Positions 13,722 to 64,000 of a stretch of DNA of 64,000 bases are shown piece after piece. A program made the position numbers and the translations under genes. Position 1 is the stretch's first letter, and every line of letters begins with the position of its first letter. This DNA comes from Escherichia phage JSE. The stretch is from the sequence record EU863408. One strand, 5' to 3'. Below the pieces are notes generated by a model. It saw only the letters and a list, made by a program, of their open reading frames with translations, ran no database searches and was not told the origin of the DNA.

Positions 13722-13749
13722 TTGACAATCTTATTTGGTAAGGTATAAT
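13722..13749 (+). promoter_or_regulatory. consensus sigma70-type early promoter
   Basis: TTGACA (13722-13727), 16-nt spacer, TATAAT (13744-13749); 30 nt before the ATG at 13779. Confidence 0.6.
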
Positions 13750-38009: not shown

Positions 38010-38390
38010 AATATTTCCTCCATAGAAAGCAATATCATACTACAAGTTAATAACAAATACAAGTATCCGCGTAGCGGAAGCGAGCACAGCGAGCAATAAA
38101 ACACTTCCAGTAATTGATTAATAAATGTTCGAAACAAATTTTTATTATTCTATAAGATAAGTCTTCGTTTTGATCATAATTTAATCACACATGTAAAAAC
38201 TACACAAAAGGATATCGCTTCGCGAACTCCTACGGAGTATAACATTTGTGTTACAATATGTAGTGATTAATAATTAACCAAAGATACATTTTCTATGTTC
38301 TAAAGATCTTTCTTCGTTTTGATCATAATTTAATCAAACAGTATTAATATTGTGCACATGTAAACTAAAATTATGTTAATAACAGATAAC

Positions 38391-38416
38391 AAAAAACGCC
38401 GACCCGAAGGACGGCT
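38391..38416 (-). terminator. intrinsic terminator (minus strand)
   Basis: minus-strand GCCGTCC-ttcg-GGTCGGC followed by GTTTTTT. Confidence 0.55.
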
Positions 38417-38424
38417 AATGTTAA

Positions 38425-52887: not shown

Positions 52888-52902
52888 TTTAAACCTCCCA
52901 TA

Positions 52903-52940
52903 TAACAGAAAACGGGGCTAGTATAAAACTAGTCCCCGTT
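52903..52940 (-). terminator. intrinsic terminator after alt
   Basis: minus-strand ACGGGGACTAG-loop-CTAGCCCCGT followed by TTTTCTGTT. Confidence 0.5.
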
Positions 52941-52965
52941 TGAGTCAACCATTATTTCTTAAAAA

Positions 52966-55017
52966 TTACATTTTAAATTTATCTGGCATTGCGTCTACAG
53001 ATACCAGATCAGCGATAAGCTGACGTAGAGTTGCCTTATCTGCTTTCTTACGTTCGGTTTTAGCTTCGCTAATGAAGCTGGAGAAAGACAGGTCAGAAGC
53101 AGGTTTAACAACACCTTCACGGATGAATGCATCACCGTCTGCGATCATCTCGCCAGATTCTTGTAATGCTGCCAGTTCATTTTTGTTCATAATATGTGCC
53201 TCAATGTAATAAGTTTCTTGTGAATCCGTCGATGCCGTAGCACGAGTTACCGTATCAAAGGATAACACAACACCGCGAGGAAGTAAAATCTCGCATTCTT
53301 TGTAAGCAAATGCTTTGTTACCTACTGGCAATACAGGGATGTTTTCCGCGCCAGCAATGGAGAAAGCAACATTAGCGCCACCTTCACCGCGAGAGCCAGC
53401 CATAGAATCAACACCAGCAACGGCACTAGCCACGTTTGCATTCCAGCCGCCAAAAATGTTAGGTGCAAGGGAAGTGCTCACATAGTTTTTAAAGTAAAAC
53501 GCTTTTTGCTTACGTGCAGTTTCCCACATTTGCGACCGGAAGTCCATACCACGATACAGAATAGTACCCGGATCAAGTTTAACGCCATAGTTGGAGAAGG
53601 CATTATCCAGTGCATCGCACATCTTGACCAATTCTTCTGGATCTGAGATTCCTTCAAACTCTTCCAGCTTACGGTCGGTTAGGAAGTTGTTCATATTGAT
53701 GTATGCTGCATCGGCATATTCGCTCAACACAAAACCTTCCGCGCCTGGCAGATCAAGATCAATATTTGCCATCATTTCACCCATGTTGCTAGCAATTGCT
53801 TCAAACATACCGGAAGCAACATTACGTAGGGCATCGGTTTTAATCTGGGTGATATTACTACGCAGCATTTCAGCTTTTACATCTGCTGGCATAGACTGGT
53901 CTACTCGATCCATTGCCAGTGCGGTGATCTTGTTTTCGAATACTTCCTCGCTCATGATTTCTTTTAAGCGTTTGATTGATGCTGCGATAACTTCCGCAGA
54001 CAACGGATCATATTGATCCTGAACTTTTACCAGTTCGCTTACTGCGTATTTTGCATCGGCTTCGCTTTCAAAAATAGTACGCATGAAACCATAGCGAGTG
54101 ATAATATCACTTGTCCAGTCATTCAGAGAACGGGCGGTTGAACGTTCTAAGGCTTGACGATCAATCAGAGTATTAAACTGTTTCTTAGGTTCTGCTTCGG
54201 TGATATCTTCTTCCGGTTTAAGATTAATTTTTTCTGGATGATTCACATAGTCGCTGTTATAGGTCGCTTGAGTTTTCAGCATTTCTTCTTTAGTCAAACG
54301 AGATTTAGCCGCTACGCGTTGTTCCGCTTCCGCGTTTCGTTCTTCTTCTGACACAAGACTAGCCGCATACGCTTCATCTTTAGTCAGAGATTCACCAGTA
54401 GCCTTAGATACCCAGCGATCACCTAAATCACTTTCTACTTTAGTGAACAAGGAATCATCAAGTTTAATCCCTTTAATCTTATCAATCGCCATACCGCGAC
54501 GCTTGACAACAACTAAAGCGATCTTTTTGCTGGTCATTACTTCCTGCTGGAATACTTCAAACTTCGGTGTACGACGCACCAAACGCTCTATAACGCGCTT
54601 AACCAGTTCGGTCTTACCTTTCATGCGGGATACGTTAAAACGGAACATAACAGCGTCTAGTTGCGCTTTACGGGCTGTTTCCATAACCACATCAAAAGCA
54701 CTTGACATAACTGCAATCGGGTTATCGCCTAGACCATTTTTAAGCTGTACAATACGACCGCTTTTGTTCATTTCGCACAGTACAACATGTGCGGTCTTGT
54801 CACCCATACGAATGATTTTAGGTGTTTTGTTGGTGAAGTTACAAAGACGGACAATCACATCTTTATCGCGTGTCTGTACTGCAAAAAGCTGTTTAGGATT
54901 CTGCTTAGGCTTTAAGCACTGTACCGGGGCAATACTACCAAAGTTTTCTTCCTCTTCCGTCAACAGCCATTTCTCGAAAGATTCAATCATTAGATCGTCG
55001 ATTTCTAAGTTAAACAT
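52966..55017 (-). CDS. alt: Alt ADP-ribosyltransferase (packaged protein)
   Basis: 683 aa (T4 Alt 682 aa); ILYRGM, YVSTS, ECEILLPRG. Confidence 0.8.
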   Translation of the reverse strand: MFNLEIDDLMIESFEKWLLTEEEENFGSIAPVQCLKPKQNPKQLFAVQTRDKDVIVRLCNFTNKTPKIIRMGDKTAHVVLCEMNKSGRIVQLKNGLGDNPIAVMSSAFDVVMETARKAQLDAVMFRFNVSRMKGKTELVKRVIERLVRRTPKFEVFQQEVMTSKKIALVVVKRRGMAIDKIKGIKLDDSLFTKVESDLGDRWVSKATGESLTKDEAYAASLVSEEERNAEAEQRVAAKSRLTKEEMLKTQATYNSDYVNHPEKINLKPEEDITEAEPKKQFNTLIDRQALERSTARSLNDWTSDIITRYGFMRTIFESEADAKYAVSELVKVQDQYDPLSAEVIAASIKRLKEIMSEEVFENKITALAMDRVDQSMPADVKAEMLRSNITQIKTDALRNVASGMFEAIASNMGEMMANIDLDLPGAEGFVLSEYADAAYINMNNFLTDRKLEEFEGISDPEELVKMCDALDNAFSNYGVKLDPGTILYRGMDFRSQMWETARKQKAFYFKNYVSTSLAPNIFGGWNANVASAVAGVDSMAGSRGEGGANVAFSIAGAENIPVLPVGNKAFAYKECEILLPRGVVLSFDTVTRATASTDSQETYYIEAHIMNKNELAALQESGEMIADGDAFIREGVVKPASDLSFSSFISEAKTERKKADKATLRQLIADLVSVDAMPDKFKM

Positions 55018-55061
55018 TTTATATCCTCTAGTTGATAACCTATAAACCTATATTTATGAAA

Positions 55062-55085
55062 ACGGGGCTTAACGCCCCTTTTTAT
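55062..55085. terminator. hairpin terminator separating the hyperplastic region from alt
   Basis: GGGGC-ttaac-GCCCC with T-runs on both strands. Confidence 0.5.
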
Positions 55086-55297
55086 TATAATGCACCATCG
55101 AGCAATTGCTCTAAGGTGTATCCTGAATAGTCTTTTTCAATCAGGATATATTTTCCTACTCGTTTAATACAACCGCGCATTTCAACGTATTCTGCGTAGT
55201 TGATGGTACGAGTTGTTCCATCTTCCAGTAATGCAGTACCGATTTCGTTAATGCGGTCATAAGTTACGTCGGTAATGATGATTTCGATGTTAGCCAT
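55085..55297 (-). CDS. hypothetical protein (MANIE N-terminus)
   Basis: 70 aa; AGGAG before ATG. Confidence 0.5.
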   Translation of the reverse strand: MANIEIIITDVTYDRINEIGTALLEDGTTRTINYAEYVEMRGCIKRVGKYILIEKDYSGYTLEQLLDGAL

Positions 55298-55333
55298 TTG
55301 ATACTCCTTAGTAGTTCGTTTCTGTATGGGTGT

Positions 55334-55362
55334 ATTATGATATACACCCTCTGTTATGTCAA
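55334..55362 (-). promoter_or_regulatory. repeated early-promoter cassette, copy A
   Basis: minus-strand TTGACA-N17-CATAAT; dyad GGGTGTAT/ATACACCC over the -10. Confidence 0.5.
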
Positions 55363-55368
55363 CAACTT

Positions 55369-55548
55369 TTAGAACATTTTTGAAATTAATTCTGCTTTGA
55401 TTTCGCAGAGAACATCTAAAGATTTCTCGTCACCCGCTTTTGCTGCTTCTGCTTGCATTTTTGAAATGGCTTCAATCTCAGTGCAATTATAAGCCGCTTG
55501 AACTTTAGCGATTGCGATGATTGCCGATTCGATGGTTAAGTGTTTCAT
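55369..55548 (-). CDS. hypothetical protein (59 aa)
   Basis: conserved 5' leader GGAGAATCAAAC before ATG; below ORF-track cutoff. Confidence 0.45.
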   Translation of the reverse strand: MKHLTIESAIIAIAKVQAAYNCTEIEAISKMQAEAAKAGDEKSLDVLCEIKAELISKMF

Positions 55549-55580
55549 GTTTGATTCTCCTTTCGTTTCGGTATGTGTGT

Positions 55581-55609
55581 ATTATAGGGGATCGATGATC
55601 CCCTGTCAA
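55581..55609 (-). promoter_or_regulatory. repeated early-promoter cassette, copy B
   Basis: minus-strand TTGACA-GGGGATCATCGATCCCC-TATAAT. Confidence 0.55.
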
Positions 55610-55617
55610 CAACTTTT

Positions 55618-56136
55618 TTAGTTATTTTTTAATTGCTCATCTTGCAATAGGGCAATCACATGCTGGCGATGTTCTTCCGATTGAGGCACACCGAAAAAGT
55701 TTGTTTTGTAGAAATACTCTAATCGGTCTTCTCGTGTGCTCTCTTCCATCATGATCGCGGGTAGTCCGAGATTTCGGAAACGTCGCTTTTCTGCTGGCGT
55801 AAAATCACTGTAATACAACATAGAATCATCATTACCAGCAATGCTAAACTCATCCTTCATAAAGGAGAATATTGCGTTTAAACGCTGTTTACCGTCCACG
55901 ATTTCGATCTCATAGCGAGAGCCATCATCAATCTTAGCCATTGCGATAGCACCAACCGGAAAATCATTAATCAGGTTTTCGATAAACATACGTTTGTTTT
56001 CTGTGTCCCATACTAAAGGACGCTGATAATCTGGGTTCATGTTGATATAGCCATCTTCTAACCATGCATCATAAACAGAGATGACAAAGTTTTTAGTATT
56101 GGTATAGTAACGGCGTTTAGGCGTTAAACGGTTCAT
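55618..56136 (-). CDS. DUF262 (ParB-like nuclease/NTPase fold) domain protein
   Basis: 172 aa from internal ATG (MNRLTP); motifs PDYQRPLVWD, FPVGAI, VDGKQRLNAIFSF; ATG 1 nt after the upstream stop. Confidence 0.6.
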   Translation of the reverse strand: MNRLTPKRRYYTNTKNFVISVYDAWLEDGYINMNPDYQRPLVWDTENKRMFIENLINDFPVGAIAMAKIDDGSRYEIEIVDGKQRLNAIFSFMKDEFSIAGNDDSMLYYSDFTPAEKRRFRNLGLPAIMMEESTREDRLEYFYKTNFFGVPQSEEHRQHVIALLQDEQLKNN

Positions 56137-56137
56137 G

Positions 56138-56467
56138 TTATAGTCTCCTGAATGGATCATCACGTAAATCAATATCTTTTAAGAACTCATCCCATGAATG
56201 CCGGATATTGTTCTTAATTCTCCAGATAAGCGCAGGGATTGAACGCTCTCCCATCTGGAAGTAAGGATCATATGATCCGTATGCCCAATATGCTACTACA
56301 ATTCCACAATCAGCGCAATAGTATTCTATTTCACTTGCTGGCGACCAAAGTCCATCAATATGATCGGTGATCTTGCTTTCGATGTTATGGCTATGACAAT
56401 CAGGGCAACGGATGCAATGACCTTGTTTATCGTAATTTGACGTTAGCGAATACTTAAACAATCTCAT
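56138..56467 (-). CDS. hypothetical Zn-ribbon protein
   Basis: 109 aa; CIRCPDCH ... CADCG. Confidence 0.5.
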   Translation of the reverse strand: MRLFKYSLTSNYDKQGHCIRCPDCHSHNIESKITDHIDGLWSPASEIEYYCADCGIVVAYWAYGSYDPYFQMGERSIPALIWRIKNNIRHSWDEFLKDIDLRDDPFRRL

Positions 56468-57183
56468 TATAGATCCTTATTTGCTTCAAATACTGCCTTT
56501 GCGAATCCTCGCGGGGTAAGTGACCTTATAGTCTTTGTTTTCGTTCCTTTCCCGCCTAGCTTAGAATGCTGTTTACTGTACCCTTTATTAATCTGCAACG
56601 GTTTCTTTTCTGGCATTATAAAGCCTTGTCCGGACCATAAGCAAGTCTTTTTCGGGTACATATCACGGGCGGCAATATACTCAGGAAACGTAGGATGCTT
56701 ATCATCTTCCGGCAAATAACCGCCATATTCCCACGGATGGAACATATAATCAGGCTTACGCCACATGCTAGAGATAACGCTTACAGGATTCTCTATCATG
56801 TAGGGAACTCCTAGCCATTCACCCAAATAAGCGGTTATTTTAGCTGCCCTTACATCATGAACTTGAATCAATGGTCCTTGCTCTCGTTTCTTTCGTTCAA
56901 AGTGTGCAGCGCCACTAACAGCTAAATTGGTGCACGGTGGGAATGCAAAGATAATATCCGGTTTCCCCCATTCAAGGTCCATTGCTCTTTCCAGCCAGTT
57001 CAAATCAATCCAGGTGTTTACATAGGTAATGTTTGGATGTTCAAATCTGGTATTATACTTTTTGTATGTACCGTGGTCGGCGTCATCCGCATTAAAGCAG
57101 ACTACCTTATGACCTGCTTTAGCCCATTCTAGCCCCATTATCCCCGATCCGTCAAAGTTGCAGAATATTAATTTTTGTTTCAC
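56467..57183 (-). CDS. compact C5-cytosine methyltransferase-like protein
   Basis: 238 aa, GTG start; motif I-like FDGSGIMGL, motif IV DIIFAFPPCTNLAVSG, motif VI-like MIENPVSV; no obvious TRD. Confidence 0.45.
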   Translation of the reverse strand: MKQKLIFCNFDGSGIMGLEWAKAGHKVVCFNADDADHGTYKKYNTRFEHPNITYVNTWIDLNWLERAMDLEWGKPDIIFAFPPCTNLAVSGAAHFERKKREQGPLIQVHDVRAAKITAYLGEWLGVPYMIENPVSVISSMWRKPDYMFHPWEYGGYLPEDDKHPTFPEYIAARDMYPKKTCLWSGQGFIMPEKKPLQINKGYSKQHSKLGGKGTKTKTIRSLTPRGFAKAVFEANKDL

Positions 57184-57431
57184 GCTGCCCCCATTGGTTT
57201 GATAGTAACAGAATCTAAAAGACCTTTGTTAGCCAGTTCGCGGCAAGTTTTCAGATCCGCAACTTCCCAGCCAGCCGCAATCAGGTTATCAATGAGGCTG
57301 TTAGCAACTTCTTCGCTCATGAAAGAGCACTGTTTGCCGATGGTGTAGCGTACACGCTGTAATTTCAGTTTACGGAAGCCTTTAACGTTCAGGTCTTTAG
57401 CGATTTTCTTTGCGGTTTCGATGTTAGCCAT
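57180..57431 (-). CDS. hypothetical protein (MANIE N-terminus)
   Basis: 83 aa; stop overlaps the start of the methyltransferase-like gene. Confidence 0.5.
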   Translation of the reverse strand: MANIETAKKIAKDLNVKGFRKLKLQRVRYTIGKQCSFMSEEVANSLIDNLIAAGWEVADLKTCRELANKGLLDSVTIKPMGAA

Positions 57432-57471
57432 TGTTTGATTCTCCTAAGTGGTATCTCGTCTTGATGGTTGT

Positions 57472-57500
57472 ATTGTAGGGGAGTTATCCTCCCCTGTCAA
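57472..57500 (-). promoter_or_regulatory. repeated early-promoter cassette, copy C
   Basis: minus-strand TTGACA-GGGGAGGATAACTCCCC-TACAAT. Confidence 0.5.
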
Positions 57501-57514
57501 CACTTTTTATAAAA

Positions 57515-57682
57515 TTATTTGTTAATTTCTGGTGCGTTGCTAGGATAGTAACCTTCTTTAACTCCGAGATATTTCGCAACCATCCCTACAATCTTCTGTG
57601 CTACTACAATGTCAAATTTCAGATAATCTTCGCCGTGGGTTTCAATGATATATGCTTCACATGCTGCTTTAGTCTCGAACAT
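57515..57682 (-). CDS. hypothetical protein (55 aa), paralog of 60994-61161
   Basis: MFETKAACEAYIIETHGEDYLKFDIVVAQK...; near-identical second copy. Confidence 0.5.
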   Translation of the reverse strand: MFETKAACEAYIIETHGEDYLKFDIVVAQKIVGMVAKYLGVKEGYYPSNAPEINK

Positions 57683-57715
57683 TTTGATTCTCCTATTTCG
57701 TTTCGGTATGTGTGT

Positions 57716-57744
57716 ATTATAGGGGATCGGTGATCCCCTGTCAA
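57716..57744 (-). promoter_or_regulatory. repeated early-promoter cassette, copy D
   Basis: minus-strand TTGACA-GGGGATCACCGATCCCC-TATAAT. Confidence 0.55.
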
Positions 57745-57750
57745 CAACTT

Positions 57751-58062
57751 TTAGCGACGGCGACGATGTTTTTTGCGAGTTGCCTTTTTGTATGCTTTAT
57801 ATGCCTTTTTACCGTTTTTATATGCTTTTTTGGTATATGATTGATTTTTCTTATTGTTTTTGTATGTTTCCCGGTCAGTATTAATTTCGTTACATTCCAC
57901 GAAACGGTGTCGATGTTCTTGTGGTATGATCAAACATTTATCATAATTAACCATTTCGTTTTTCGTTGTTTGTGGTTTCTTTGGTGTGTTGTTTGCACTA
58001 ACAGACCCAGCAAAGAGAATGAGTATAGCGGTCATTAACGCAAACATTGTTTTCTTAATCAT
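57751..58062 (-). CDS. secreted small protein with lysine/arginine-rich tail
   Basis: 103 aa; N-terminal signal peptide; C-terminal KKAYKNGKKAYKAYKKATRKKHRRRR. Confidence 0.5.
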   Translation of the reverse strand: MIKKTMFALMTAILILFAGSVSANNTPKKPQTTKNEMVNYDKCLIIPQEHRHRFVECNEINTDRETYKNNKKNQSYTKKAYKNGKKAYKAYKKATRKKHRRRR

Positions 58063-58120
58063 AATATTCTCCTTTAGTTTCTGCGGGAGTGTGAATATAA
58101 CACTCCCTTAATATTTTGTA

Positions 58121-58402
58121 TTATTCGTGATTAGTTTCGATGTTGTGCATTTTGCACCAGTTCAGCCAATCGCCCAGATCTTGATAGTTAATGCTTTTAT
58201 CTGCTGCCATCGTTTTTGTCTTGATACCCATATGTGCGTTATGAGTAAGCATTTTTACAGTGAACTCGATTTTATCGCCTTTAGCTTTAACATCAACCAG
58301 TTTGGTCCACTGGCTACCAGCACCGCGAATGTTCATACCAACGATGTTTCCGATGTATGCTTCTTTGTTTTTCAGGATTTCGGTTGCTTTGATGAATTTC
58401 AT
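58121..58402 (-). CDS. hypothetical protein
   Basis: 93 aa; conserved leader before ATG. Confidence 0.5.
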   Translation of the reverse strand: MKFIKATEILKNKEAYIGNIVGMNIRGAGSQWTKLVDVKAKGDKIEFTVKMLTHNAHMGIKTKTMAADKSINYQDLGDWLNWCKMHNIETNHE

Positions 58403-58435
58403 TTTTGATTCTCCAGTTCGTTTCGGTATGGGTGT

Positions 58436-58464
58436 ATTATGCTATGTTCTTACTTTGGTGTCAA
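58436..58464 (-). promoter_or_regulatory. repeated early-promoter cassette, copy E
   Basis: minus-strand TTGACA-N17-CATAAT. Confidence 0.5.
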
Positions 58465-58473
58465 CAACTTTTT

Positions 58474-58743
58474 TTAGATATTTTCAGAAATAAATTTTAA
58501 AACTTGACGTAAATGTTTCTCATCTTTGATGGTAGCCGGAAGTTCTTCTTTTACTTCCTGTGCAAGATAGATATTTCCGTTCCAAGTGAAAGATCCGTCT
58601 TCGTTTACTCGATAGCTGAACATCCACTCGCAATCATTTTCGATTTCATATACACACAGAAGGGTGTAATCGTTAAAGCTATTGATTTCAAGGTCGAAGC
58701 CGTGACGTTTTGCAAAGTTGGTAGTGGTTTTAGTCAGTACCAT
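58474..58743 (-). CDS. hypothetical protein
   Basis: 89 aa; conserved leader. Confidence 0.5.
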   Translation of the reverse strand: MVLTKTTTNFAKRHGFDLEINSFNDYTLLCVYEIENDCEWMFSYRVNEDGSFTWNGNIYLAQEVKEELPATIKDEKHLRQVLKFISENI

Positions 58744-58783
58744 TGTTTGATTCTCCTAAGTGGTATCTCGTCTTGATGGGTGT

Positions 58784-58812
58784 ATTATGCTATACACAGG
58801 ATCTGGTGTCAA
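58784..58812 (-). promoter_or_regulatory. repeated early-promoter cassette, copy F
   Basis: minus-strand TTGACA-N17-CATAAT. Confidence 0.5.
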
Positions 58813-58840
58813 TGCCTTTTTTAAAATTTTATGCAATAAA

Positions 58841-58866
58841 AAAGCCGACGCTAAGGTCGGCTAATA
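58841..58866 (-). terminator. intrinsic terminator (minus strand)
   Basis: minus-strand AGCCGACC-ttagc-GTCGGCT followed by TTTTTTATT. Confidence 0.55.
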
Positions 58867-58869
58867 AAA

Positions 58870-59177
58870 TCATTTAGACAAATAATCATTCAGTGCAATC
58901 CGGTCGGCGTATGCTGGTGTTACGTCAATCGCAATCACTTTAACGCGTGCTTTCTTGCGACCTGGGTTTTCTCGTAACCAGTGCTCATGACCGTGAACAT
59001 TTTATACTGCGATGCTTCTTCGAAAGTACGGATCGGACAAGGGTAATCAGCGTAAAGGATCTCTAGGTCTTCGGTGATGTAAAAATATACATCATAATTA
59101 CTGTTCTCTAGTTTAAGCAGAGACTTTCGGAACATTGGGAGATTTTCGCGGGTAAATTCAAAGATATTATCTTTCAT
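58870..59177 (-). CDS. HxHW-family small protein, frameshifted at a 4-nt homopolymer (59000-59003)
   Basis: N-part in ORF 58935-59177; C-part (NVHGHEHW...VKVIAIDVTPAYAD...) in another frame; adding one A joins them. Confidence 0.4.
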
Positions 59178-59201
59178 AGTATTATCCTCAATAGTTGGAT
59201 G

Positions 59202-59223
59202 AAAAGGGGGGCTTAATGCCCCG
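59202..59223 (-). terminator. intrinsic terminator (minus strand)
   Basis: minus-strand GGGGC-atta-GCCCC followed by CTTTT. Confidence 0.45.
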
Positions 59224-59227
59224 TATA

Positions 59228-59515
59228 TTAAAACAGTCCTTCCTGTACACCGTAGTAGAGTTCATCGCTGATAATTTCATTAATGCGACGGTGTGCATAT
59301 TCCTGATTTGCGAAGTTGTCAGCAAGTTCTACTTTAGTTTCGCCATCATGAGTCCATTTAGTGATAACTTTACCATCGGCAAATTTGAAGTTGAACTCTT
59401 TAGCTACCGCATCGCGTACCAGACGTGCAAACTTATTGTTGCGGATTGCATTGTCGGTTTCGTGTGCAGCGTGAGCGAATTTGTTAACTTTCAGAGTGAT
59501 AGTAATGTATGCCAT
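59228..59515 (-). CDS. hypothetical protein (KEFN family)
   Basis: 95 aa; shares VR.A.AKEFN.K with 62649-62960. Confidence 0.5.
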   Translation of the reverse strand: MAYITITLKVNKFAHAAHETDNAIRNNKFARLVRDAVAKEFNFKFADGKVITKWTHDGETKVELADNFANQEYAHRRINEIISDELYYGVQEGLF

Positions 59516-59562
59516 AATTTGATTCTCCTAGTTAGAAAGTGTATCTCGTTTCGACGGGTGTA

Positions 59563-59591
59563 TTATGCTATACACCCGATCCATTGTCAAC
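59563..59591 (-). promoter_or_regulatory. repeated early-promoter cassette, copy G
   Basis: minus-strand TTGACA-N17-CATAAT; dyad GGGTGTA/TACACCC over the -10. Confidence 0.5.
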
Positions 59592-59922
59592 GCCTTTTTA
59601 TAAAATAATTTTCGATATCTTTATGATGTTTTTCTCGTGCTTGGTCTGCCTCGGCTGGCGATACGTTGGAAGCGATAATCTTCACTACTGTTGCACCTTT
59701 TTCGGTGTCCGACACCCAATGATTATGGAAACCGCTATTATTAAACACTTGATAAGAAAATGATTTAATGTTAGGGAAATTATAAGTGTAATAACGTACC
59801 CTTAATTCTGAATCTACGTATAGATAGATCACCGCACCTAGATAGACCGTCTCACTCGTTCCGTCAACTAACAGTAGAGTATTTCGCAATTCTTCTAAAT
59901 TGTCTTTTGTAAGAAAAATCAT
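59587..59922 (-). CDS. HxHW-family small protein
   Basis: 111 aa; FHNHW...VKIIASNVSPAEAD. Confidence 0.5.
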   Translation of the reverse strand: MIFLTKDNLEELRNTLLLVDGTSETVYLGAVIYLYVDSELRVRYYTYNFPNIKSFSYQVFNNSGFHNHWVSDTEKGATVVKIIASNVSPAEADQAREKHHKDIENYFIKRR

Positions 59923-59936
59923 AGTATAATCCTCAA

Positions 59937-60260
59937 TTAAACCAAATTAACTTTGGTGTTGTGGTGGTTTTCTCGTGCGTCGTCCGCTTCTTCCGGTGTC
60001 ACGTTACGAGCGACGACAATAACACTTGCTGCCTCTCCGTGATGATAGATCTCTACCCAATGGTTATGATTTGCGAATCCGTGTTTTATTGCGTAAGCGA
60101 ACGGCTTAGACGTCCAGTAGTAACTATAATATCGTACATTTAGATCGCTATCAATGTACAAATATGTGCTGTCGTTTACATTGCCACTAACAACAAAAAC
60201 AAGACAATTGCGAAGATCTGACAATATTTTGTCTGTCAATTTTATAATGTGACTGTTCAT
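59937..60260 (-). CDS. HxHW-family small protein
   Basis: 107 aa from ATG at 60260 (track ORF begins at a GTG, 60272); NHNHW...VIVVARNVTPEEAD. Confidence 0.45.
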   Translation of the reverse strand: MNSHIIKLTDKILSDLRNCLVFVVSGNVNDSTYLYIDSDLNVRYYSYYWTSKPFAYAIKHGFANHNHWVEIYHHGEAASVIVVARNVTPEEADDARENHHNTKVNLV

Positions 60261-60262
60261 AA

Positions 60263-60478
60263 TTAACACCACTCAAGAGTTTTTGAAAACACATCTATCC
60301 ATTGTTGAGTATATGCGGTTTCTTTCCATGACACAATACCAGTCGAATAATGGTTTTTGTTTCCAGAAAAGGACGGGCATTTTGATGCATCTTCCATCAT
60401 CTTTTCGGCGAACTCTGGTTCGTATACCCGCAGAATCTGTTGATATGCTTTGTATTCTTTAAATTTGCTCATAATCAT
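60263..60478 (-). CDS. hypothetical protein
   Basis: 71 aa; overlaps both neighbours in other frames. Confidence 0.35.
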   Translation of the reverse strand: MIMSKFKEYKAYQQILRVYEPEFAEKMMEDASKCPSFSGNKNHYSTGIVSWKETAYTQQWIDVFSKTLEWC

Positions 60479-60737
60479 TCACTACCTTATCAGCTTCTTT
60501 TGTTGTTTTTACATCAACTGCGATAACCCGTAAAGGTTCGTCATGGTTCCACCAATGATCGTGAATATCGGCTTGTGATTTATCACCAAAGGAATCACGA
60601 ATATCATTTTTACATTTATAGCTAATGTGACCGTCATAGTCAACATAAAGGTAATTATCGAAAATCGGCGTTTTTAAGATCATACCGAAAAATCTTTCTT
60701 TGTGTGTCTTATCCAGTGTTGCAGTAATTCGCATCAT
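60459..60737 (-). CDS. HxHW-family small protein
   Basis: 92 aa; HDHWW...RVIAVDVKTTKEAD. Confidence 0.5.
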   Translation of the reverse strand: MMRITATLDKTHKERFFGMILKTPIFDNYLYVDYDGHISYKCKNDIRDSFGDKSQADIHDHWWNHDEPLRVIAVDVKTTKEADKVVNDYEQI

Positions 60738-60749
60738 AATATATTCCTC

Positions 60750-60929
60750 TTAGAAAGGGATGGTCATTTCTTGAGCTTGTACATTCTCGTTAGGATTAAA
60801 CTTCATCCAACCGATATTGTCTACCAGCATATGCACATTTTTATCATATCCTACGTGGGTAGTCAATACTGTATGTGCTTTACCTTCAACGATGATTTCC
60901 ATGTACTTCTGAACTTCGATAGCTTTCAT
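60750..60929 (-). CDS. hypothetical protein (59 aa)
   Basis: conserved leader GGAGAATCAAA before ATG. Confidence 0.4.
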   Translation of the reverse strand: MKAIEVQKYMEIIVEGKAHTVLTTHVGYDKNVHMLVDNIGWMKFNPNENVQAQEMTIPF

Positions 60930-60961
60930 TTTGATTCTCCGTTTGTTGTCTTGATGGGAGT

Positions 60962-60990
60962 ATCTTACTACTCCCTTTAATCATTGTCAA
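60962..60990 (-). promoter_or_regulatory. repeated early-promoter cassette, copy H (divergent)
   Basis: minus-strand TTGACA-N17-TAAGAT; dyad GGGAGTAGTA/TACTCCC. Confidence 0.4.
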
Positions 60991-60993
60991 CTA

Positions 60994-61161
60994 TTATTTG
61001 TTAATTTCCGGTGCGTTGCTTGGATAGTAGCCTTCTTTAACACCCAGATATTTTGCAACCATTCCGGTGATCTTCTGTGCTACTACGATATCGAATTTCA
61101 GGTAGTCTTCACCGTGGTTTGCTACAATGTATGCTTCGCATTCTGCTTTAGTCTGGAACAT
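60994..61161 (-). CDS. hypothetical protein (55 aa), paralog of 57515-57682
   Basis: starts at the internal ATG (MFQTKAECEAYIVANHGEDYLKFDIVVAQK...) after the conserved leader. Confidence 0.5.
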   Translation of the reverse strand: MFQTKAECEAYIVANHGEDYLKFDIVVAQKITGMVAKYLGVKEGYYPSNAPEINK

Positions 61162-61195
61162 TTTTGATTCTCCTATATCTCGTTGGTATGTGTGC

Positions 61196-61224
61196 ATTAT
61201 AGGGGATCACCGATCCCCTGTCAA
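61196..61224 (-). promoter_or_regulatory. repeated early-promoter cassette, copy I
   Basis: minus-strand TTGACA-GGGGATCGGTGATCCCC-TATAAT. Confidence 0.55.
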
Positions 61225-61229
61225 CAACT

Positions 61230-61524
61230 TTATAATGCTTTATATGCGTATTTCATAAATTTGTCTGCCACTTCATTGGCATGTTCAGATTCTACGCCTG
61301 ATTCGAGAACAATAGCTAGGTCGGTTTCGTCATTCCCGCCGTACCAATGATTTGATGTTCGATTTTTTTCAATTGGAAATTGGTCACTTTTATCTGTGCG
61401 ACAAAATACATCTAAATGCTCATCGATGTAAAAGATCCAATCTTCATAAAGAATAACGGGTATTAGCAAGATTTTTATTGCCTTCAACGAAAGGTTCGGC
61501 TACAAACAAATTAGTATGTTCCAT
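61230..61524 (-). CDS. hypothetical protein, frameshifted at a 5-nt homopolymer (61472-61476)
   Basis: ATG at 61522-61524 with GAGGA opens a 26-codon frame; removing one T joins it to ORF 61230-61487. Confidence 0.35.
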
Positions 61525-61540
61525 AGTAATTTCCTCAAAA

Positions 61541-61732
61541 TTATACAGCTTCGTAAACTTCCCAATGTCCAACACCAGCACGCTTAACGAAAAGGTTTTC
61601 TTTGATGTTATTCATAAACGTCTGGATGGATTTAATGCGGTTTGAAGGTTTCCATTCTTCGTTGGAATTGCGGCGATACATAATAACATTACCAGTTCGC
61701 TTATATTCAGCAACCATTTTAAGACAACACAT
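61541..61732 (-). CDS. hypothetical protein
   Basis: 63 aa; GAGGATAAT before ATG. Confidence 0.45.
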   Translation of the reverse strand: MCCLKMVAEYKRTGNVIMYRRNSNEEWKPSNRIKSIQTFMNNIKENLFVKRAGVGHWEVYEAV

Positions 61733-61780
61733 AATATTATCCTCAATTTGTGGGAGAGTATTACCCCTCCCGATGTTGTT

Positions 61781-61809
61781 ATATTACATTACACAAAATG
61801 GCGTGTCAA
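61781..61809 (-). promoter_or_regulatory. repeated early-promoter cassette, copy J (variant with 5'-UTR hairpin)
   Basis: minus-strand TTGACA-N17-TAATAT followed by hairpin GGGAGGGGTAATACTCTCCC. Confidence 0.4.
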
Positions 61810-62109
61810 TGCTTCTTTTGCGGTTCCGCTAAGACTTTCGATCTCGCCTGGCATAACATCAACCGCCAGAACTTCTACAACATCCTCGGACCCTAACCAG
61901 TGAGTATGGCCTTTGTAGAACTTGATAACCAGACTACCTTCCTCGTCCCATTTAACGCTATCGCTAGCCCACCACACATCACCGTCGATAAAGTTGATGT
62001 AAAGCACACTACGCCACATTGAATTAATTACTTTCAATACTGCGCCTTTCATCTCTTCCACGGTATGGTCTTCCATTTTGAAGACCTCACCTACCTGAAC
62101 TTTTGCCAT
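61789..62109 (-). CDS. HxHW-family small protein
   Basis: 106 aa from internal ATG (MAKVQVGEV...); GHTHW...VVEVLAVDV. Confidence 0.5.
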   Translation of the reverse strand: MAKVQVGEVFKMEDHTVEEMKGAVLKVINSMWRSVLYINFIDGDVWWASDSVKWDEEGSLVIKFYKGHTHWLGSEDVVEVLAVDVMPGEIESLSGTAKEALTRHFV

Positions 62110-62110
62110 G

Positions 62111-62377
62111 TTACATGCTCCGAATATGTTTAGCTGCATCTTCCAGTTCGTCGATAGTGACACTGTGTGCCAGTAAGTGTACTGGTTGTGGTTCTTCACC
62201 TTCCATAGTATTGATCAGATGACCGTTTCCTGGGTGGAATGTATCGTTGCCGTTCCAAATAGCATACACATCATCTTCTGTTACGTAGATAATAAGTCCA
62301 ATCGGTGATTCTGGTAATTGAAAAATTTTACCCACTGCATCTTTGCGATTGTTTACGATATCTTTTACTGTCTTCAT
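62111..62377 (-). CDS. hypothetical protein (distant HxHW relative?)
   Basis: 88 aa; stop lies 1 nt before the next ATG. Confidence 0.45.
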   Translation of the reverse strand: MKTVKDIVNNRKDAVGKIFQLPESPIGLIIYVTEDDVYAIWNGNDTFHPGNGHLINTMEGEEPQPVHLLAHSVTIDELEDAAKHIRSM

Positions 62378-62396
62378 TTAGTTACCTCTCGTTAAA

Positions 62397-62576
62397 TTAC
62401 ATCACAATCACGCCAGCCGTTGAAAGTTGATGTTTCAACTGAGCATTTTCTGCTACTGTCAAATCAATGATTTCTTGTGACGCTGCAATCATATAGCCAT
62501 TGGTGATATTGTTTTGCATCAGTTCAATGGTTTCTTCGTTGTAGCGGATTTTAGCGATGATTTCGTTGAAGTTCAT
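62397..62576 (-). CDS. hypothetical protein (59 aa)
   Basis: conserved leader GGAGAATCAAAC before ATG. Confidence 0.4.
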   Translation of the reverse strand: MNFNEIIAKIRYNEETIELMQNNITNGYMIAASQEIIDLTVAENAQLKHQLSTAGVIVM

Positions 62577-62610
62577 GTTTGATTCTCCTAGTTCGTTTCG
62601 GTATGTGTGT

Positions 62611-62640
62611 ATTATAGGGGAGTTTAACCTCCCCTGTCAA
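62611..62640 (-). promoter_or_regulatory. repeated early-promoter cassette, copy K
   Basis: minus-strand TTGACA-GGGGAGGTTAAACTCCCC-TATAAT (18-nt spacer). Confidence 0.5.
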
Positions 62641-62648
62641 CAACTTTT

Positions 62649-62960
62649 TTAAAGTTTTTCCATGATAACGGTCATAATTACATCTTCTGCGCGAGCGGTC
62701 AGATTATCAGCGTCAGCATGTGGGCGGTTGGTTGTTACAGAGATAACACCGTTGCGCACTGGTTTGATATTGATATCAAGATGATCCGCGAAACGTTCGC
62801 CAGTTACAGAATGAATTTTGGTGTTAAATTCTTTTGCCAGTGCCTTGCGAACTTCACGAATCAGGATAGCGTTTTTCAGTTGGTTCTCCGCGCTCATGGT
62901 CTTCTGGGTGTTCATGGTTCCGTCGAAGTCAATCATTGGCAGCGTTACGATGTATTTCAT
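62649..62960 (-). CDS. hypothetical protein (KEFN family)
   Basis: 103 aa; shares VRKALAKEFNTK with 59228-59515. Confidence 0.5.
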   Translation of the reverse strand: MKYIVTLPMIDFDGTMNTQKTMSAENQLKNAILIREVRKALAKEFNTKIHSVTGERFADHLDINIKPVRNGVISVTTNRPHADADNLTARAEDVIMTVIMEKL

Positions 62961-63004
62961 TTTTGATTCTCCGTTTAAGAAAGTGTGTTTCGTTTTGATG
63001 TGTG

Positions 63005-63033
63005 TAGTATAGGGGATACGTGATCCCCTGTCA
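63005..63033 (-). promoter_or_regulatory. repeated early-promoter cassette, copy L
   Basis: minus-strand TTGACA-GGGGATCACGTATCCCC-TATACT. Confidence 0.5.
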
Positions 63034-63047
63034 ACAACTTTTTTGAA

Positions 63048-63392
63048 TTATTTTTTCATGAGCTTAATGGCTTCTTCCATAGCCAGCACATTTCGATAGT
63101 TAGGGTATCGTGTTAGATCGTCATACATTCGCTTAAGGGTGGAAACTTCCTCAAACTCTGGGTTTTCTAGATACAGTTGAACAAATTGTTTCTCTACCAT
63201 CTCGGCTTTTAGCTTGTCTGCTTGTTCCTGTTCATATGATTTCGTTGGACCCAACACCAACAAAATGATAAAGGTGATCAACGGGCTAATGATCAATGAT
63301 AGGATAACATAACCGATAACGCTACGGTTTAAACGGCTTGCGTACATGCCTACCAGGAAAACAAAAAGGATATAGATAAACAGAAAGAACAT
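63048..63392 (-). CDS. small membrane protein
   Basis: 114 aa; two N-terminal hydrophobic helices, charged helical C-terminus. Confidence 0.5.
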   Translation of the reverse strand: MFFLFIYILFVFLVGMYASRLNRSVIGYVILSLIISPLITFIILLVLGPTKSYEQEQADKLKAEMVEKQFVQLYLENPEFEEVSTLKRMYDDLTRYPNYRNVLAMEEAIKLMKK

Positions 63393-63399
63393 ATAATAG

Positions 63400-63873
63400 T
63401 TACTCCTTATTTTCGCGCTCGTACTTTTCGAAATAAAATTCTACTGGCTGGTCATGAATTGACAGCAAGCCAAAGCGTTTAGCCGCTCGCAATCCCATAT
63501 TGCGCTGAATATACTTCTGGAAGTTCTCGCGTATACACTTACGCCAGTATTCTAAGCCCATACAGCTTTTATAAAGATTGCATTGTACACACGCCGGATT
63601 CATGTTATCAAGTATATCATGTTCCGGTTTATGCATTCCTACGACCTTATACTTCCACGATCCATCATCATTACGGGCAATTCGTCCATTTTCATCATAG
63701 ACTACCTTTGAGCGTCGCAATACTGGTTTGATGTGGTCTGCGTGCCAGCGATCCCCTAGTTCCTCGCCACAATAGGCACAACGTCCACCATATTTCATTT
63801 TCAGGATCTGGCGTTGCTCTTTCTTTGACAATTTTTTAGGTTTAGGGGCTTTCGCCCCTTCATTATCACACAT
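63400..63873 (-). mobile_element. HNH endonuclease (free-standing homing-endonuclease-like)
   Basis: 157 aa; CAYCGEEL ... HADHIKPV ... NMNPACVQCNLYK. Confidence 0.7.
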
Positions 63874-64000
63874 CGAATACCTCTTTTACTGTATTTGCAG
63901 TGGTCTTGTCGTAGCGAATACGTTTGATGATTGGGAGAAATAAAGAGAACTCCGGTTCATCTTCTTTACGTGATTTGCTGCGGATATACCCGTTGCATGT
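63866..64000 (-). CDS. hypothetical protein, C-terminal part (gene starts beyond window end)
   Basis: open frame ending ...KEVFDV with stop overlapping the HNH start codon. Confidence 0.35.
   Translation of the reverse strand, partial: TCNGYIRSKSRKEDEPEFSLFLPIIKRIRYDKTTANTVKEVFDV

What the first reader, a model, noticed from the sequence alone, without database searches (positions are those of the whole stretch)
55334..63033. Twelve copies of a promoter/leader cassette drive a hyperplastic block of small minus-strand genes
A 60-70 bp unit recurs 12 times on the minus strand (copies at 55334, 55581, 57472, 57716, 58436, 58784, 59563, 60962, 61196, 61781, 62611, 63005). Each has -35 TTGACA, a 17-18 nt spacer, a -10 (TATAAT or CATAAT), a conserved leader (ACACACATACCGAAACGAA) and RBS GGAGAATCAAA-ATG. 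Each sits directly after the stop of the upstream gene. This matches the promoter-early-stem-loop (PeSL) style of modular cassette described for T4-type plasticity regions and would make this segment a recombination-built array of early genes.
Basis: seen in the sequence. Interest (0 to 1): 0.6.

Follow-up and report, generated by a model that had tools for sequence, protein, structure and literature searches.

The report
Known PeSL promoter cassettes, RB49-type phage
The repeated 60-75 bp units are real, but they are the published "PeSL" promoter/hairpin/ribosome-site cassettes of RB49-type (Krischvirus) T4-like coliphages, found here in the very genome region where PeSLs were first defined and tested, so the finding is correct but already known.

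Summary
All 12 coordinates are the ends of -10 hexamers of sigma-70-type promoters on the minus strand: -35 TTGACA in 12 of 12, spacer 17 nt in 11 and 18 nt in one. Eleven belong to one repeat family with an A/C-rich leader and a GGAGAATCAAA ribosome site. The copy at 61781 is only a promoter-like site and shares no block above background with the others.

It lies inside the -35/-10 spacer in six copies and over the -10 box in three to four.

The window is a Krischvirus (RB49-like T4-type coliphage). The block is RB49 hyperplastic region 3, ORF185-ORF211, between alt and the HNH/ligase genes. That is where Arbiol et al. 2010 defined PeSLs, tested promoter and terminator activity, and showed PeSL-PeSL mini-circles. 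Two window copies are base-identical to RB49 PeSL211/210 and RB49 PeSL206/205.

In ten relatives, about half of the synteny breakpoints (8-9 of 18) fall in the cassettes, which cover 13% of the region. Three of the indel events do not involve them.

Verdict: interpretation supported, already known, low interest.

The parts
55298..55368 (-). Cassette c1, upstream of the ORF185 homolog (55085-55297). -35 at 55362-55357, -10 CATAAT at 55339-55334, RBS GGAGTATCAAA.
   Evidence: Hairpin GGGTGTAT-N6-ATACACCC lies over the -10 box, -12.7 kcal/mol, z -3.5.
55549..55617 (-). Cassette c2, upstream of the ORF186 homolog (55369-55548). -35 at 55609, -10 TATAAT ending at 55581, leader ACACACATACCGAAACGAA, RBS GGAGAATCAAA.
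   Evidence: Spacer hairpin GGGGATC-ATC-GATCCCC, z -2.9. ORF186 is missing in G37-3 and JK32, with the junction inside c1/c2.
57432..57514 (-). Cassette c3, upstream of the four-gene unit ORF190, methyltransferase ORF189, ORF188 and ORF187. -35 at 57500, -10 TACAAT ending at 57472.
   Evidence: Spacer hairpin GGGGAG-loop-CTCCCC, -15.7 kcal/mol, z -3.6. A 40-nt exact block of leader, RBS and first codon is shared with c6.
57683..57750 (-). Cassette c4, upstream of the ORF191 homolog (57515-57682). -35 at 57744, -10 TATAAT ending at 57716.
   Evidence: A 34-nt exact block is shared with c2. Its upstream edge (57752) is a synteny breakpoint in 8 of the 10 relatives.
58063..58120 (-). Degenerate cassette between the ORF193 homolog and the window-specific 103-aa ORF. 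It has a hairpin (58085-58107) and RBS AAAGGAGAATATTATG but no good -35/-10. It is homologous to RB49 'PeSL193/192'.
   Evidence: RB49 aligns from 58053. RB49 carries ORF192 in this slot, where the window carries the 103-aa ORF.
58403..58473 (-). Cassette c5, upstream of the ORF193 homolog (58121-58402). -35 at 58464, -10 CATAAT ending at 58436. No hairpin.
   Evidence: The fold is no better than shuffles (-0.5 kcal/mol, z +1.3).
58744..58830 (-). Cassette c6, upstream of the ORF194 homolog (58474-58743). -35 at 58812, -10 CATAAT ending at 58784. It has a weak 6-bp hairpin over the -10 box and is preceded by an intrinsic-terminator-like hairpin at 58843-58862.
   Evidence: Window 58765-58861 aligns twice in relatives that carry ORF195/196, so it is a 97-nt direct repeat flanking that module.
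59516..59613 (-). Cassette c7, upstream of the ORF198 homolog (59228-59515). -35 at 59590, whose TGA is the stop codon of the upstream ORF. -10 CATAAT ending at 59562.
   Evidence: Hairpin GGGTGTAT-N6-ATACACCC lies over the -10 box, -16.8 kcal/mol, z -3.6. A breakpoint at 59630 separates it from a replaced gene module.
60930..60993 (-). Cassette c8, a divergent member, upstream of a five-gene unit (60750-60929 down to 59587-59922). -35 at 60990, -10 TAAGAT ending at 60962, RBS GGAGAATCAAA.
   Evidence: Hairpin GGGAGTA-N6-TACTCCC lies over the -10 box, -15.2 kcal/mol, z -4.8.
61162..61229 (-). Cassette c9, upstream of the ORF205 homolog (60994-61161). -35 at 61224, -10 TATAAT ending at 61196.
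   Evidence: Base-identical to RB49 PeSL206/205. A PeSL of that name gave about 13,000 Miller units in a lacZ fusion (PMC2839356). Spacer hairpin GGGGATC-GGT-GATCCCC.
61733..61809 (-). c10: a promoter-like site only, not a member of the repeat family. TTGACA-N17-TAATAT, with the -35 inside the 3' end of the ORF208 homolog. A hairpin GGGAG-N10-CTCCC lies downstream of the -10, and the RBS is TTGAGGATAATATTATG.
   Evidence: The longest block shared with any other copy is 10 nt or less, which equals background.
62577..62648 (-). Cassette c11, upstream of ORF209, the 88-aa ORF and ORF208. -35 at 62640, 18-nt spacer, -10 TATAAT ending at 62611.
   Evidence: Spacer hairpin GGGGAGG-loop-CTCCCC, z -3.4. 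A breakpoint at 62666 occurs in three relatives that lack ORF210/211.
62961..63047 (-). Cassette c12, upstream of the ORF210 homolog (62649-62960). -35 at 63034, -10 TATACT ending at 63006.
   Evidence: Base-identical to RB49 PeSL211/210. The hairpin of that PeSL lowered lacZ expression about as much as the rrnB T1 terminator (PMC2839356). A breakpoint at 63055 occurs in phi1 and TB34, which lack ORF211.
52888..52965 (-). TTGACT-N17-TATACT, with a hairpin over the -10 box followed by GTTTTCTGTT.
   Evidence: sequence, fold -22.3 kcal/mol. A promoter is annotated at the equivalent place in GEC-3S.
55064..55078 (-). Terminator-like hairpin closing the array, after the ORF185 homolog and before alt.
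   Evidence: Annotated as a terminator in GEC-3S, G37-3 and TB34.

Best explanation
**What it is.** The block 52.9-63.1 kb (minus strand) is hyperplastic region 3 of an RB49-type (Krischvirus) T4-like coliphage. About 25 small, mostly unannotated early genes are split into short transcription units by PeSL cassettes (promoter-early stem-loop).

**Layout of one cassette, 5' to 3'.**
- An AT-rich tract that holds the stop codon of the preceding gene.
- A near-consensus host sigma-70 promoter (TTGACA-N17-TATAAT-like).
- A G-run/loop/C-run hairpin, nested in the spacer or overlapping the -10 box.
- An A/C-rich unstructured leader.
- A strong Shine-Dalgarno sequence (GGAGAATCAAA) and the ATG.

**How it most likely works.**
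- *Shown in the literature for RB49/phi1 PeSLs.* Unmodified host RNA polymerase starts strongly at each cassette right after infection. One tested PeSL hairpin cut read-through about as much as a strong terminator, which fits each unit being expressed mainly from its own promoter.
- *Follows from the geometry.* The hairpin lies upstream of the cassette's own start site, so it is transcribed only in RNA coming from the unit upstream.
- *Inferred here.* In the spacer class the -10 box itself supplies the weak A/U-rich tract after the hairpin.
- *Supported here by comparative data, and by published mini-circle PCR.* The copies share 11-40 nt exact blocks, so they serve as short homology patches for the phage recombination system. 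Recombination between two copies deletes, duplicates, inserts or swaps the genes between them. Each moved gene keeps its own promoter, terminator and ribosome site.
For: **Taxonomic and positional identity.**
- map the block to RB49/phi1 ORF185-211.
- One search reports 'eight PeSLs in an ~5-kb area' around ORF192 in HPR3.

**Anatomy.**
- Searches show the promoter, leader and RBS, far above chance.
- nine of 12 sites have hairpins with z between -2.1 and -4.8.
- Stem sequences differ between copies (GGGGATC, GGGGAG, GGGTGTAT, GGGAGTA) while pairing is kept. That points to a structure rather than a sequence-specific site.

**Identity to characterised elements.**
- c12 equals RB49 PeSL211/210 and c9 equals RB49 PeSL206/205.
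- describe the lacZ promoter and terminator assays.
- PMC1524935 states that the RB49 early-promoter consensus agrees with 5'-end mapping of early transcripts.

**Recombination role**.
- Against 10 relatives, 8-9 of 18 distinct breakpoints fall in cassette zones that cover 13.4% of the region. Binomial P is about 1e-3 to 2e-4.
- The ORF186 deletion in G37-3 and JK32 leaves one hybrid cassette.
- The ORF195/196 module is flanked by a 97-nt duplicated cassette.
- The 103-aa ORF in the window and ORF192 in RB49 are alternative cargo in one slot, bounded by cassettes.
- ORF210 and ORF211 are present or absent with an edge at c11 or c12.

**Mosaic structure of the cassettes**.
- The same spacer type occurs with different leaders: c11 versus c3, c1 versus c6, c2/c4 versus c12.
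- This fits the published crossover mapping between the -10 and the SD/ATG.

**Not a by-product of gene duplication.** Only one pair of cassette-headed genes is paralogous.

**Lineage restriction.** The spacer-hairpin subtype occurs in two Krischvirus-sized IMG/VR contigs and in none of 185,579 bacterial or archaeal genomes.
Against: - No transcript or recombination data exist for this particular phage. Promoter and terminator activity are transferred from RB49/phi1 experiments on three elements.
- None of the cassette hairpins is followed by a U-run, and the consensus terminator scan did not call them on the minus strand. Termination efficiency is therefore uncertain, above all for the class over the -10 box.
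- c5 has no hairpin and c6 only a weak one.
- Three indel events do not use cassettes. These are ORF189.1 at a 16-nt repeat (57167-57182), the 88-aa ORF at 62111-62377, and ORF207 at RBS homology.
- One edge of several other events lies at a plain gene junction. Cassettes are a preferred substrate, not the only one.
- Breakpoints were read from BLAST HSP ends, and the 10 relatives are not independent samples.
Confidence: 0.9

Rival explanations
1. The copies are simply strong early expression signals kept similar by selection for function (promoter, leader, RBS). Recombination at them is incidental: indels end there only because they are the intergenic places where a break is tolerated. They are not 'mobile cassettes'.
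For: The most conserved columns are the functional ones: -35, -10 positions 2 and 6, and the SD. Three indel events and several single edges lie at ordinary gene junctions or micro-homologies without a cassette. This shows that viable breakpoints cluster between genes in general.
Against: Exact blocks of 30-40 nt extend through non-consensus leader sequence, and in c1/c3 and c3/c6 into the first codons. Cassettes show mosaic combinations of spacer type and leader type. A hybrid cassette sits at the ORF186 deletion, and a 97-nt duplicated cassette flanks ORF195/196. Published inverse-PCR recovered circles with crossovers inside PeSLs.
Confidence: 0.12
2. The inverted repeat in the -35/-10 spacer acts on DNA rather than RNA. 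It could be an operator for a dimeric phage or host protein, or a supercoil-sensitive element, that switches the early promoters off. RB49-type phages lack MotA.
For: GGGGATC-N3-GATCCCC is a perfect palindrome at the classic operator position in 4 window copies. No motA ortholog or middle-promoter consensus was found in RB49 (PMC1524935), so another early shut-off route is conceivable.
Against: Stem sequence and position vary between copies while pairing is kept. The stems are GGGGATC, GGGGAG, GGGTGTAT and GGGAGTA, placed in the spacer or over the -10 box. A sequence-specific operator should not behave this way. The G-run arm is always 5' on the transcribed strand. The PeSL211/210 hairpin alone lowered read-through like a strong terminator. 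Arms of 6-8 bp are short for cruciform extrusion (own knowledge).
Confidence: 0.05
3. The repeat is a by-product of tandem or dispersed gene duplication (paralogous genes carried with their upstream regions), or it is a miniature transposable element.
For: One gene pair (57515-57682 and 60994-61161, 89% amino-acid identity) is duplicated together with its upstream cassette (family D5, 26, 58).
Against: The other cassette-headed genes show no similarity to each other. The units have no terminal inverted repeats or target-site duplications. The element is absent from 185,579 bacterial and archaeal genomes. In IMG/VR it occurs only in Krischvirus-sized contigs.
Confidence: 0.02

Closest known systems
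PeSLs (promoter-early stem-loops) of coliphages RB49 and phi1 (Arbiol, Comeau, Kutateladze, Adamia, Krisch 2010, Genome Biol Evol 2:140; PMC2839356)
   Same: - Same phage genus and same genomic region (HPR3, ORF185-211).
- Same layout: AT-rich tract with the upstream stop, TTGACA-N17-TATAAT, Gn-loop-Cn hairpin between the boxes or over the -10 box, SD and ATG.
- Two copies are base-identical to RB49 elements.
- Same association with indels of ORFans.
   Different: - Only the gene cargo differs.
- This phage has a 103-aa signal-peptide ORF in the ORF192 slot.
- It has a pair of ~110-aa paralogs, shared only with KMB43, in place of ORF199/200.
- It has an extra 88-aa ORF.
- It lacks ORF189.1 and ORF195/196.
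PeSLs of the T4/PST and KVP40/nt-1 pairs (Comeau, Arbiol, Krisch 2014; PMC4122927)
   Same: The concept is the same: a composite early promoter plus hairpin in hyperplastic regions, found at swapped modules.
   Different: Those sets have other consensus sequences. The promoters are TTTACW-N17-TAYWAT for PST/T4 and TTGYVH-N17-TAWWAT for nt-1/KVP40. The stems are AGnA-loop-TCnT or A3-4G3-loop-C3T3-4. The window has the RB49-type near-perfect sigma-70 boxes and Gn-loop-Cn stems.
Classical T4 early promoters
   Same: They are recognised by host sigma-70 RNA polymerase immediately after infection, have an AT-rich upstream region, and often head small non-essential genes.
   Different: The T4 early consensus has GTTTAC at -35. 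RB49 prefers G at -33, giving TTGACA, and T or C at -12 (PMC1524935). T4 early promoters are not described there as a long repeat with a shared leader and RBS.

Membership tests
PeSL (RB49/phi1 type, Arbiol et al. 2010) | [quoted passage not shown] | tested here: met
   4 copies match 12 of 12 positions, 6 match 11 of 12, and 2 match 10 of 12. The spacer is 17 nt in 11 copies and 18 nt in one; 9 pattern hits against 0.01 expected.
PeSL (RB49/phi1 type, Arbiol et al. 2010) | [quoted passage not shown] | tested here: met
   The consensus is AAAAAAGTTG before the -35. The stop lies 3-14 nt upstream in 9 copies. Exceptions are c6 (56 nt), c7 (stop inside the -35) and c10 (-35 inside the ORF).
PeSL (RB49/phi1 type, Arbiol et al. 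2010) | Stable stem-loop (polyG ... polyC) in one of five positions relative to the promoter, most often between the -35 and -10 or overlapping the -10 | tested here: met
   Six copies have spacer hairpins (c2, c3, c4, c9, c11, c12). Three strong and one weak hairpin lie over the -10 box (c1, c7, c8; c6 weak). The strong hairpins have z from -2.1 to -4.8 against shuffles. c10 has a hairpin downstream of the -10. c5 has none.
PeSL (RB49/phi1 type, Arbiol et al. 2010) | Shine-Dalgarno sequence and start codon of the downstream gene at the 3' end | tested here: met
   GGAG(A/T)ATCAAA lies 0-3 nt before the ATG in 11 copies. c10 has GAGGATAATATTATG.
PeSL (RB49/phi1 type, Arbiol et al. 2010) | Located in a hyperplastic region of a T4-type genome, mostly directly upstream of ORFans | tested here: met
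   (Krischvirus; between alt and the HNH/gp30 genes); most downstream proteins have no Pfam family.
PeSL (RB49/phi1 type, Arbiol et al. 2010) | Indels and replacements between close relatives border on the elements | tested here: met
   8-9 of 18 breakpoints fall in 13.4% of the region. About 8 of 11 events have at least one edge in or at a cassette. Three events do not involve cassettes.
PeSL (RB49/phi1 type, Arbiol et al. 2010) | Promoter activity and terminator/attenuator activity in vivo | not testable with these tools
   Evidence is by transfer only. c12 is identical to RB49 PeSL211/210, whose hairpin was tested as a terminator. c9 is identical to RB49 PeSL206/205; a PeSL of that name was tested as a promoter. 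The paper does not say which phage's 206/205 sequence was cloned, and the phi1 version differs in the loop and the -10.
PeSL (RB49/phi1 type, Arbiol et al. 2010) | Formation of mini-circles by recombination between neighbouring elements | not testable with these tools
   Published for RB49/phi1 ORF192 and ORF210. It needs inverse PCR or long reads from infected cells of this phage.

The most novel reading that the evidence does not exclude
The perfect palindrome GGGGATC-N3-GATCCCC, nested exactly between the -35 and -10, might do more than act as an RNA terminator for upstream transcripts. It could also be a DNA-level switch, either a protein operator or a supercoil/hairpin-sensitive spacer. 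Such a switch would shut off the very strong early promoters in a T4-type lineage where no MotA-dependent middle mode has been found. The loop also occurs in both orientations among copies (ACC and GGT). If that reflects flipping in place, it would mean the hairpin or cruciform forms in DNA in vivo.
Probability: 0.04. Interest if true: 0.5.

Novelty: already known. Interest (0 to 1): 0.1.

Why it matters
PeSLs are a published explanation for how T4-type phages shuffle small accessory genes without breaking expression. Each gene travels with its own promoter, terminator and ribosome site, and the repeated cassette supplies the homology for the exchange. This window adds one more Krischvirus example with a slightly different gene load. 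Against ten relatives it also confirms that cassette edges are enriched at synteny breakpoints. It does not open a new question.

Tried and rejected
1. **Dam/GATC idea.** GATC sits at a fixed spacer position in 6 of the 12 copies. However, GATC is not depleted in the window: 374 sites against 341 expected from a Markov model. Density in the cassettes (9 per 1.14 kb) is only about twice that in the rest of the block, and the copies are not independent. Dropped.

2. **Known RNA family.** No Rfam family reaches its gathering score in 52500-64000.

3. **Spread outside the genus.** An exact-pattern scan for the spacer-hairpin subtype found it in two Krischvirus-sized IMG/VR contigs. It found none in 185,579 bacterial and archaeal genomes. 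So there is no sign of a broadly mobile element.

4. **Gene-duplication origin.** An all-against-all BLASTP of the block's proteins gave only one cassette-headed paralog pair.

5. **Origin of the 103-aa ORF.**
   - There is no DNA or tblastn match in 50,697 phage records, and the exact protein is not on record.
   - The 5.8-billion-protein search gave only two clusters, from short Logan contigs with the same ORF194-ORF193-x-ORF191 context.
   - No donor was identified.

6. **Desplats et al. 2002 (RB49 5'-end mapping).** The paper could not be read because it is not held. It is cited only through PMC1524935.

7. **Brandy synteny chain.** The automatic chain for phage Brandy was distorted by the ORF191/205 paralog. 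It was read instead.

Full report

Yes. On the minus strand of 55.0-63.1 kb a unit recurs with the form AAAAAGTTG-TTGACA-(17 nt)-TATAAT-ACACACATACCGAAACGAA-..-GGAGAATCAAA-ATG.

- The -35 is TTGACA in all twelve.
- The spacer is 17 nt in eleven and 18 nt in one.
- The -10 is TATAAT in four, CATAAT in four, and TACAAT, TATACT, TAAGAT and TAATAT once each.
- GGAGAATCAAA with up to 1 mismatch occurs 12 times in the 64-kb window. Eleven of these lie on the minus strand within 55297-62972. Shuffles give 1.87.
- TTGACA-N17/18-YAYAMTAC occurs 9 times against 0.01 expected.
- The repeat finder recovers the family as D1-D4, and one search aligns the twelve.

- The quoted leader is exact in only three copies.
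- The copy at 61781 (c10) has no family leader or RBS. Its -35 lies 21 nt inside the upstream ORF. It shares no exact block longer than 10 nt with any other copy, which equals the background for random pieces of the window.
- There are therefore eleven family members plus one unrelated promoter-like site.
- 'Directly after the stop' holds for nine copies (gap 3-14 nt). c6 is separated by a terminator hairpin. The -35 of c7 contains the upstream stop codon.

**2.

Folding each site shows a strong stem-loop in nine of twelve, with z from -2.1 to -4.8 against shuffles.

- In six copies (c2, c3, c4, c9, c11, c12) it fills the spacer between the -35 and -10, as GGGGATC-N3-GATCCCC or GGGGAG-loop-CTCCCC.
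- In c1, c7 and c8 (weakly in c6) it overlaps the -10 box, as GGGTGTAT-N6-ATACACCC or GGGAGTA-N6-TACTCCC.
- c5 has none. c10 has one downstream of the -10.

The stems differ in sequence and position but keep pairing, and the G-rich arm is always 5' on the transcribed strand. Because the hairpin lies upstream of the cassette's own start site, only transcripts arriving from upstream contain it.

**3. What the locus is.**

The region is 94-97% identical, in pieces, to about 60 Krischvirus genomes (RB49-like T4-type coliphages). The best match is vB_EcoM_G37-3, at 96% identity over 83% of the query; RB49 covers 55%.

Annotated relatives place the block between alt and the HNH endonuclease/gp30 ligase genes. 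That equals RB49/phi1 ORF185-ORF211. Pfam finds only a GmrSD_N nuclease-like domain, a zinc ribbon and HNH among ten of the larger or window-specific proteins tested; the other seven have no family.

There are about 25 genes in 12 short units:

- c12: ORF210
- c11: ORF209, the 88-aa ORF, ORF208
- c10?: ORF207, ORF206
- c9: ORF205
- c8: five genes
- c7: ORF198, ORF197
- c6: ORF194
- c5: ORF193, the 103-aa ORF
- c4: ORF191
- c3: ORF190, the methyltransferase, ORF188, ORF187
- c2: ORF186
- c1: ORF185, then a terminator

**4. Comparison with the literature.**

Arbiol et al. 2010 (PMC2839356) defined PeSLs in exactly these phages. Their findings:

- There are about 51-52 PeSLs per genome, mostly in hyperplastic regions.
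- Each has an AT-rich tract with the upstream stop, a sigma-70 consensus promoter, a polyG/polyC stem-loop, an SD and an ATG. The stem-loop is most often between the boxes or over the -10.
- A PeSL206/205 clone gave about 13,000 Miller units.
- The PeSL211/210 hairpin reduced lacZ expression like rrnB T1.
- Inverse PCR around ORF192 and ORF210 recovered circles with crossovers between the -10 and the SD/ATG. The paper notes 'eight PeSLs in an ~5-kb area' in HPR3.

Comeau et al. 2014 (PMC4122927) describe the RB49/phi1 type as TTGACA-N17-TATAAT with Gn-loop-Cn stems. PMC1524935 states that the RB49 early consensus agrees with 5'-end mapping, and that no motA or middle-promoter consensus was found in RB49.

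Window cassette c12 is base-for-base identical to RB49 PeSL211/210. Cassette c9 is identical to RB49 PeSL206/205. phi1 lacks ORF211, so the tested '211/210' hairpin should be the RB49 sequence.

**5.

All ten relatives fetched carry 7-10 strict-pattern cassettes in this region, all on the same strand. BLAST chains against the ten give these events.

Events with a cassette edge:

- ORF186 is absent in G37-3 and JK32. The junction lies inside c1/c2 and leaves one hybrid cassette.
- ORF191 is absent in UPWr_E1, JK32 and Brandy, with an edge at c3.
- The window-specific 103-aa ORF and RB49's ORF192 are alternative cargo between the degenerate '193/192' cassette (58063-58120) and c4.
- ORF195/196, present in six relatives, is flanked by a 97-nt duplication of c6 plus its terminator.
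- A replacement of ORF199/200 by two ~110-aa paralogs has one edge 40 nt upstream of the -35 of c7.
- ORF211, and ORF210 together with ORF211, are present or absent with edges at c12 and c11.

Events without a cassette:

- ORF189.1, at a 16-nt repeat (57167-57182).
- The 88-aa ORF (62111-62377), at gene junctions.
- ORF207 in UPWr_E1, at a 17-nt RBS homology.

Overall, 8-9 of 18 distinct breakpoints fall in cassette zones that cover 13.4% of the region. Binomial P is about 1e-3 to 2e-4. The relatives are not independent and HSP ends are approximate.

The cassettes themselves are mosaics. For example, c3 has the spacer of c11 but a 40-nt block of leader, RBS and first codon in common with c6. 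This matches the published crossover zone.

**6. Mechanism.**

- *Shown in the literature for RB49/phi1 PeSLs.* They are strong sigma-70 early promoters, and one tested hairpin cut read-through about as much as a strong terminator.
- *Inferred here.* In the spacer class the -10 box supplies the weak A/U tract after the hairpin. The A/C-rich leader plus GGAG SD gives efficient translation. GGAG is also the T4 RegB target, and RB49 has a divergent regB; whether RegB acts on these sites was not tested. Blocks of 11-40 nt of identity serve as homology for phage recombination, so a moved gene keeps its expression signals.

**7. Rivals.**

- *Selection-only similarity.* This is contradicted by long identical non-consensus blocks, the mosaic structure, the hybrid and duplicated cassettes, and the published circles.
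- *A DNA-level operator or cruciform.* This is disfavoured because stems vary in sequence and position while pairing is kept.
- *Gene duplication.* Excluded for all but one pair.
- *A transposable element.* This is disfavoured by the lack of terminal repeats and by restriction to the genus.

**8. Verdict.**

The feature is already known and was in fact defined at this locus. Interest is low.

Noticed in passing
window 57751-58062 (minus strand): A 103-aa ORF with an N-terminal signal-peptide-like segment and a very basic Lys/Arg-rich tail sits in the slot that holds ORF192 in RB49. It has no DNA or tblastn match in 50,697 phage records. Among 5.8 billion proteins it matches only two clusters, from short Logan contigs with the same ORF194-ORF193-x-ORF191 context. 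Those contigs are about 1.0-1.35 kb long, and their outermost called genes lie within about 30-70 nt of the contig ends.
   Followed up: yes
window 59000-59003 and 61458-61460 (minus-strand genes 58869-59177 and 61230-61524): The homologs of ORF197 and ORF206 are each broken by a single-base homopolymer change relative to phi1/RB49: A5 to A4, and CC to CCC. These are either real pseudogenes in the plastic region or sequencing errors.
   Followed up: partly
window 59587-60260 (minus strand): Two tandem paralogous ORFs of about 110 aa (43% identity) replace ORF199/200 of the other relatives. The module is found in only one of 50,697 phage records (vB-Eco-KMB43, 98% identity).
   Followed up: partly
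window 59178-59194, 59923-59939, 61525-61541, 61733-61749 (minus strand): A second repeated translation-initiation motif, TTGAGGA(T/A)(A/T)AT(A/T)(C/T)TATG, heads four genes that have no family cassette (one follows the c10 promoter-like site). The ORF207 deletion in UPWr_E1 has its junction in this motif (17-nt overlap). It may therefore be a second, shorter recombination substrate.
   Followed up: partly
window 38010-38424, plus 1488-1568: A 415-nt ORF-free stretch lies between a DprA-like gene and a small ORF near hoc. It holds two copies of an ~81-nt repeat (38115-38195 and 38264-38344). A third copy lies 36.6 kb away in a divergent intergenic region.

The stretch is 95-99% conserved in 57 Krischvirus genomes and is unannotated. 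It has no Rfam hit at E up to 1, and only a small conserved hairpin is predicted. Its function is unknown.
   Followed up: partly
Two are preceded by terminator-like hairpins (those at 13722 and 39536, the latter just downstream of hoc), and one has a hairpin over the -10 box (52948). They are probably the dispersed PeSLs reported near hoc and elsewhere in RB49/phi1.
   Followed up: partly
window c4 (57722-57738) versus c9 (61202-61218); RB49 versus phi1 PeSL206/205: The spacer palindrome occurs with its 3-nt loop in both orientations: GGGGATC-ACC-GATCCCC and GGGGATC-GGT-GATCCCC, which are exact reverse complements. This holds among copies, and between RB49 and phi1 at the same locus. The flanks also differ at that locus, so replacement by another copy is as likely as a loop inversion in place.
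   Followed up: partly
window 57167-57182: ORF189.1 (246 nt in RB49, phi1 and others) is absent here, as in UPWr_E1 and JK32. The junction is at a 16-nt direct repeat inside the operon. This is an indel that does not involve a cassette.
   Followed up: yes
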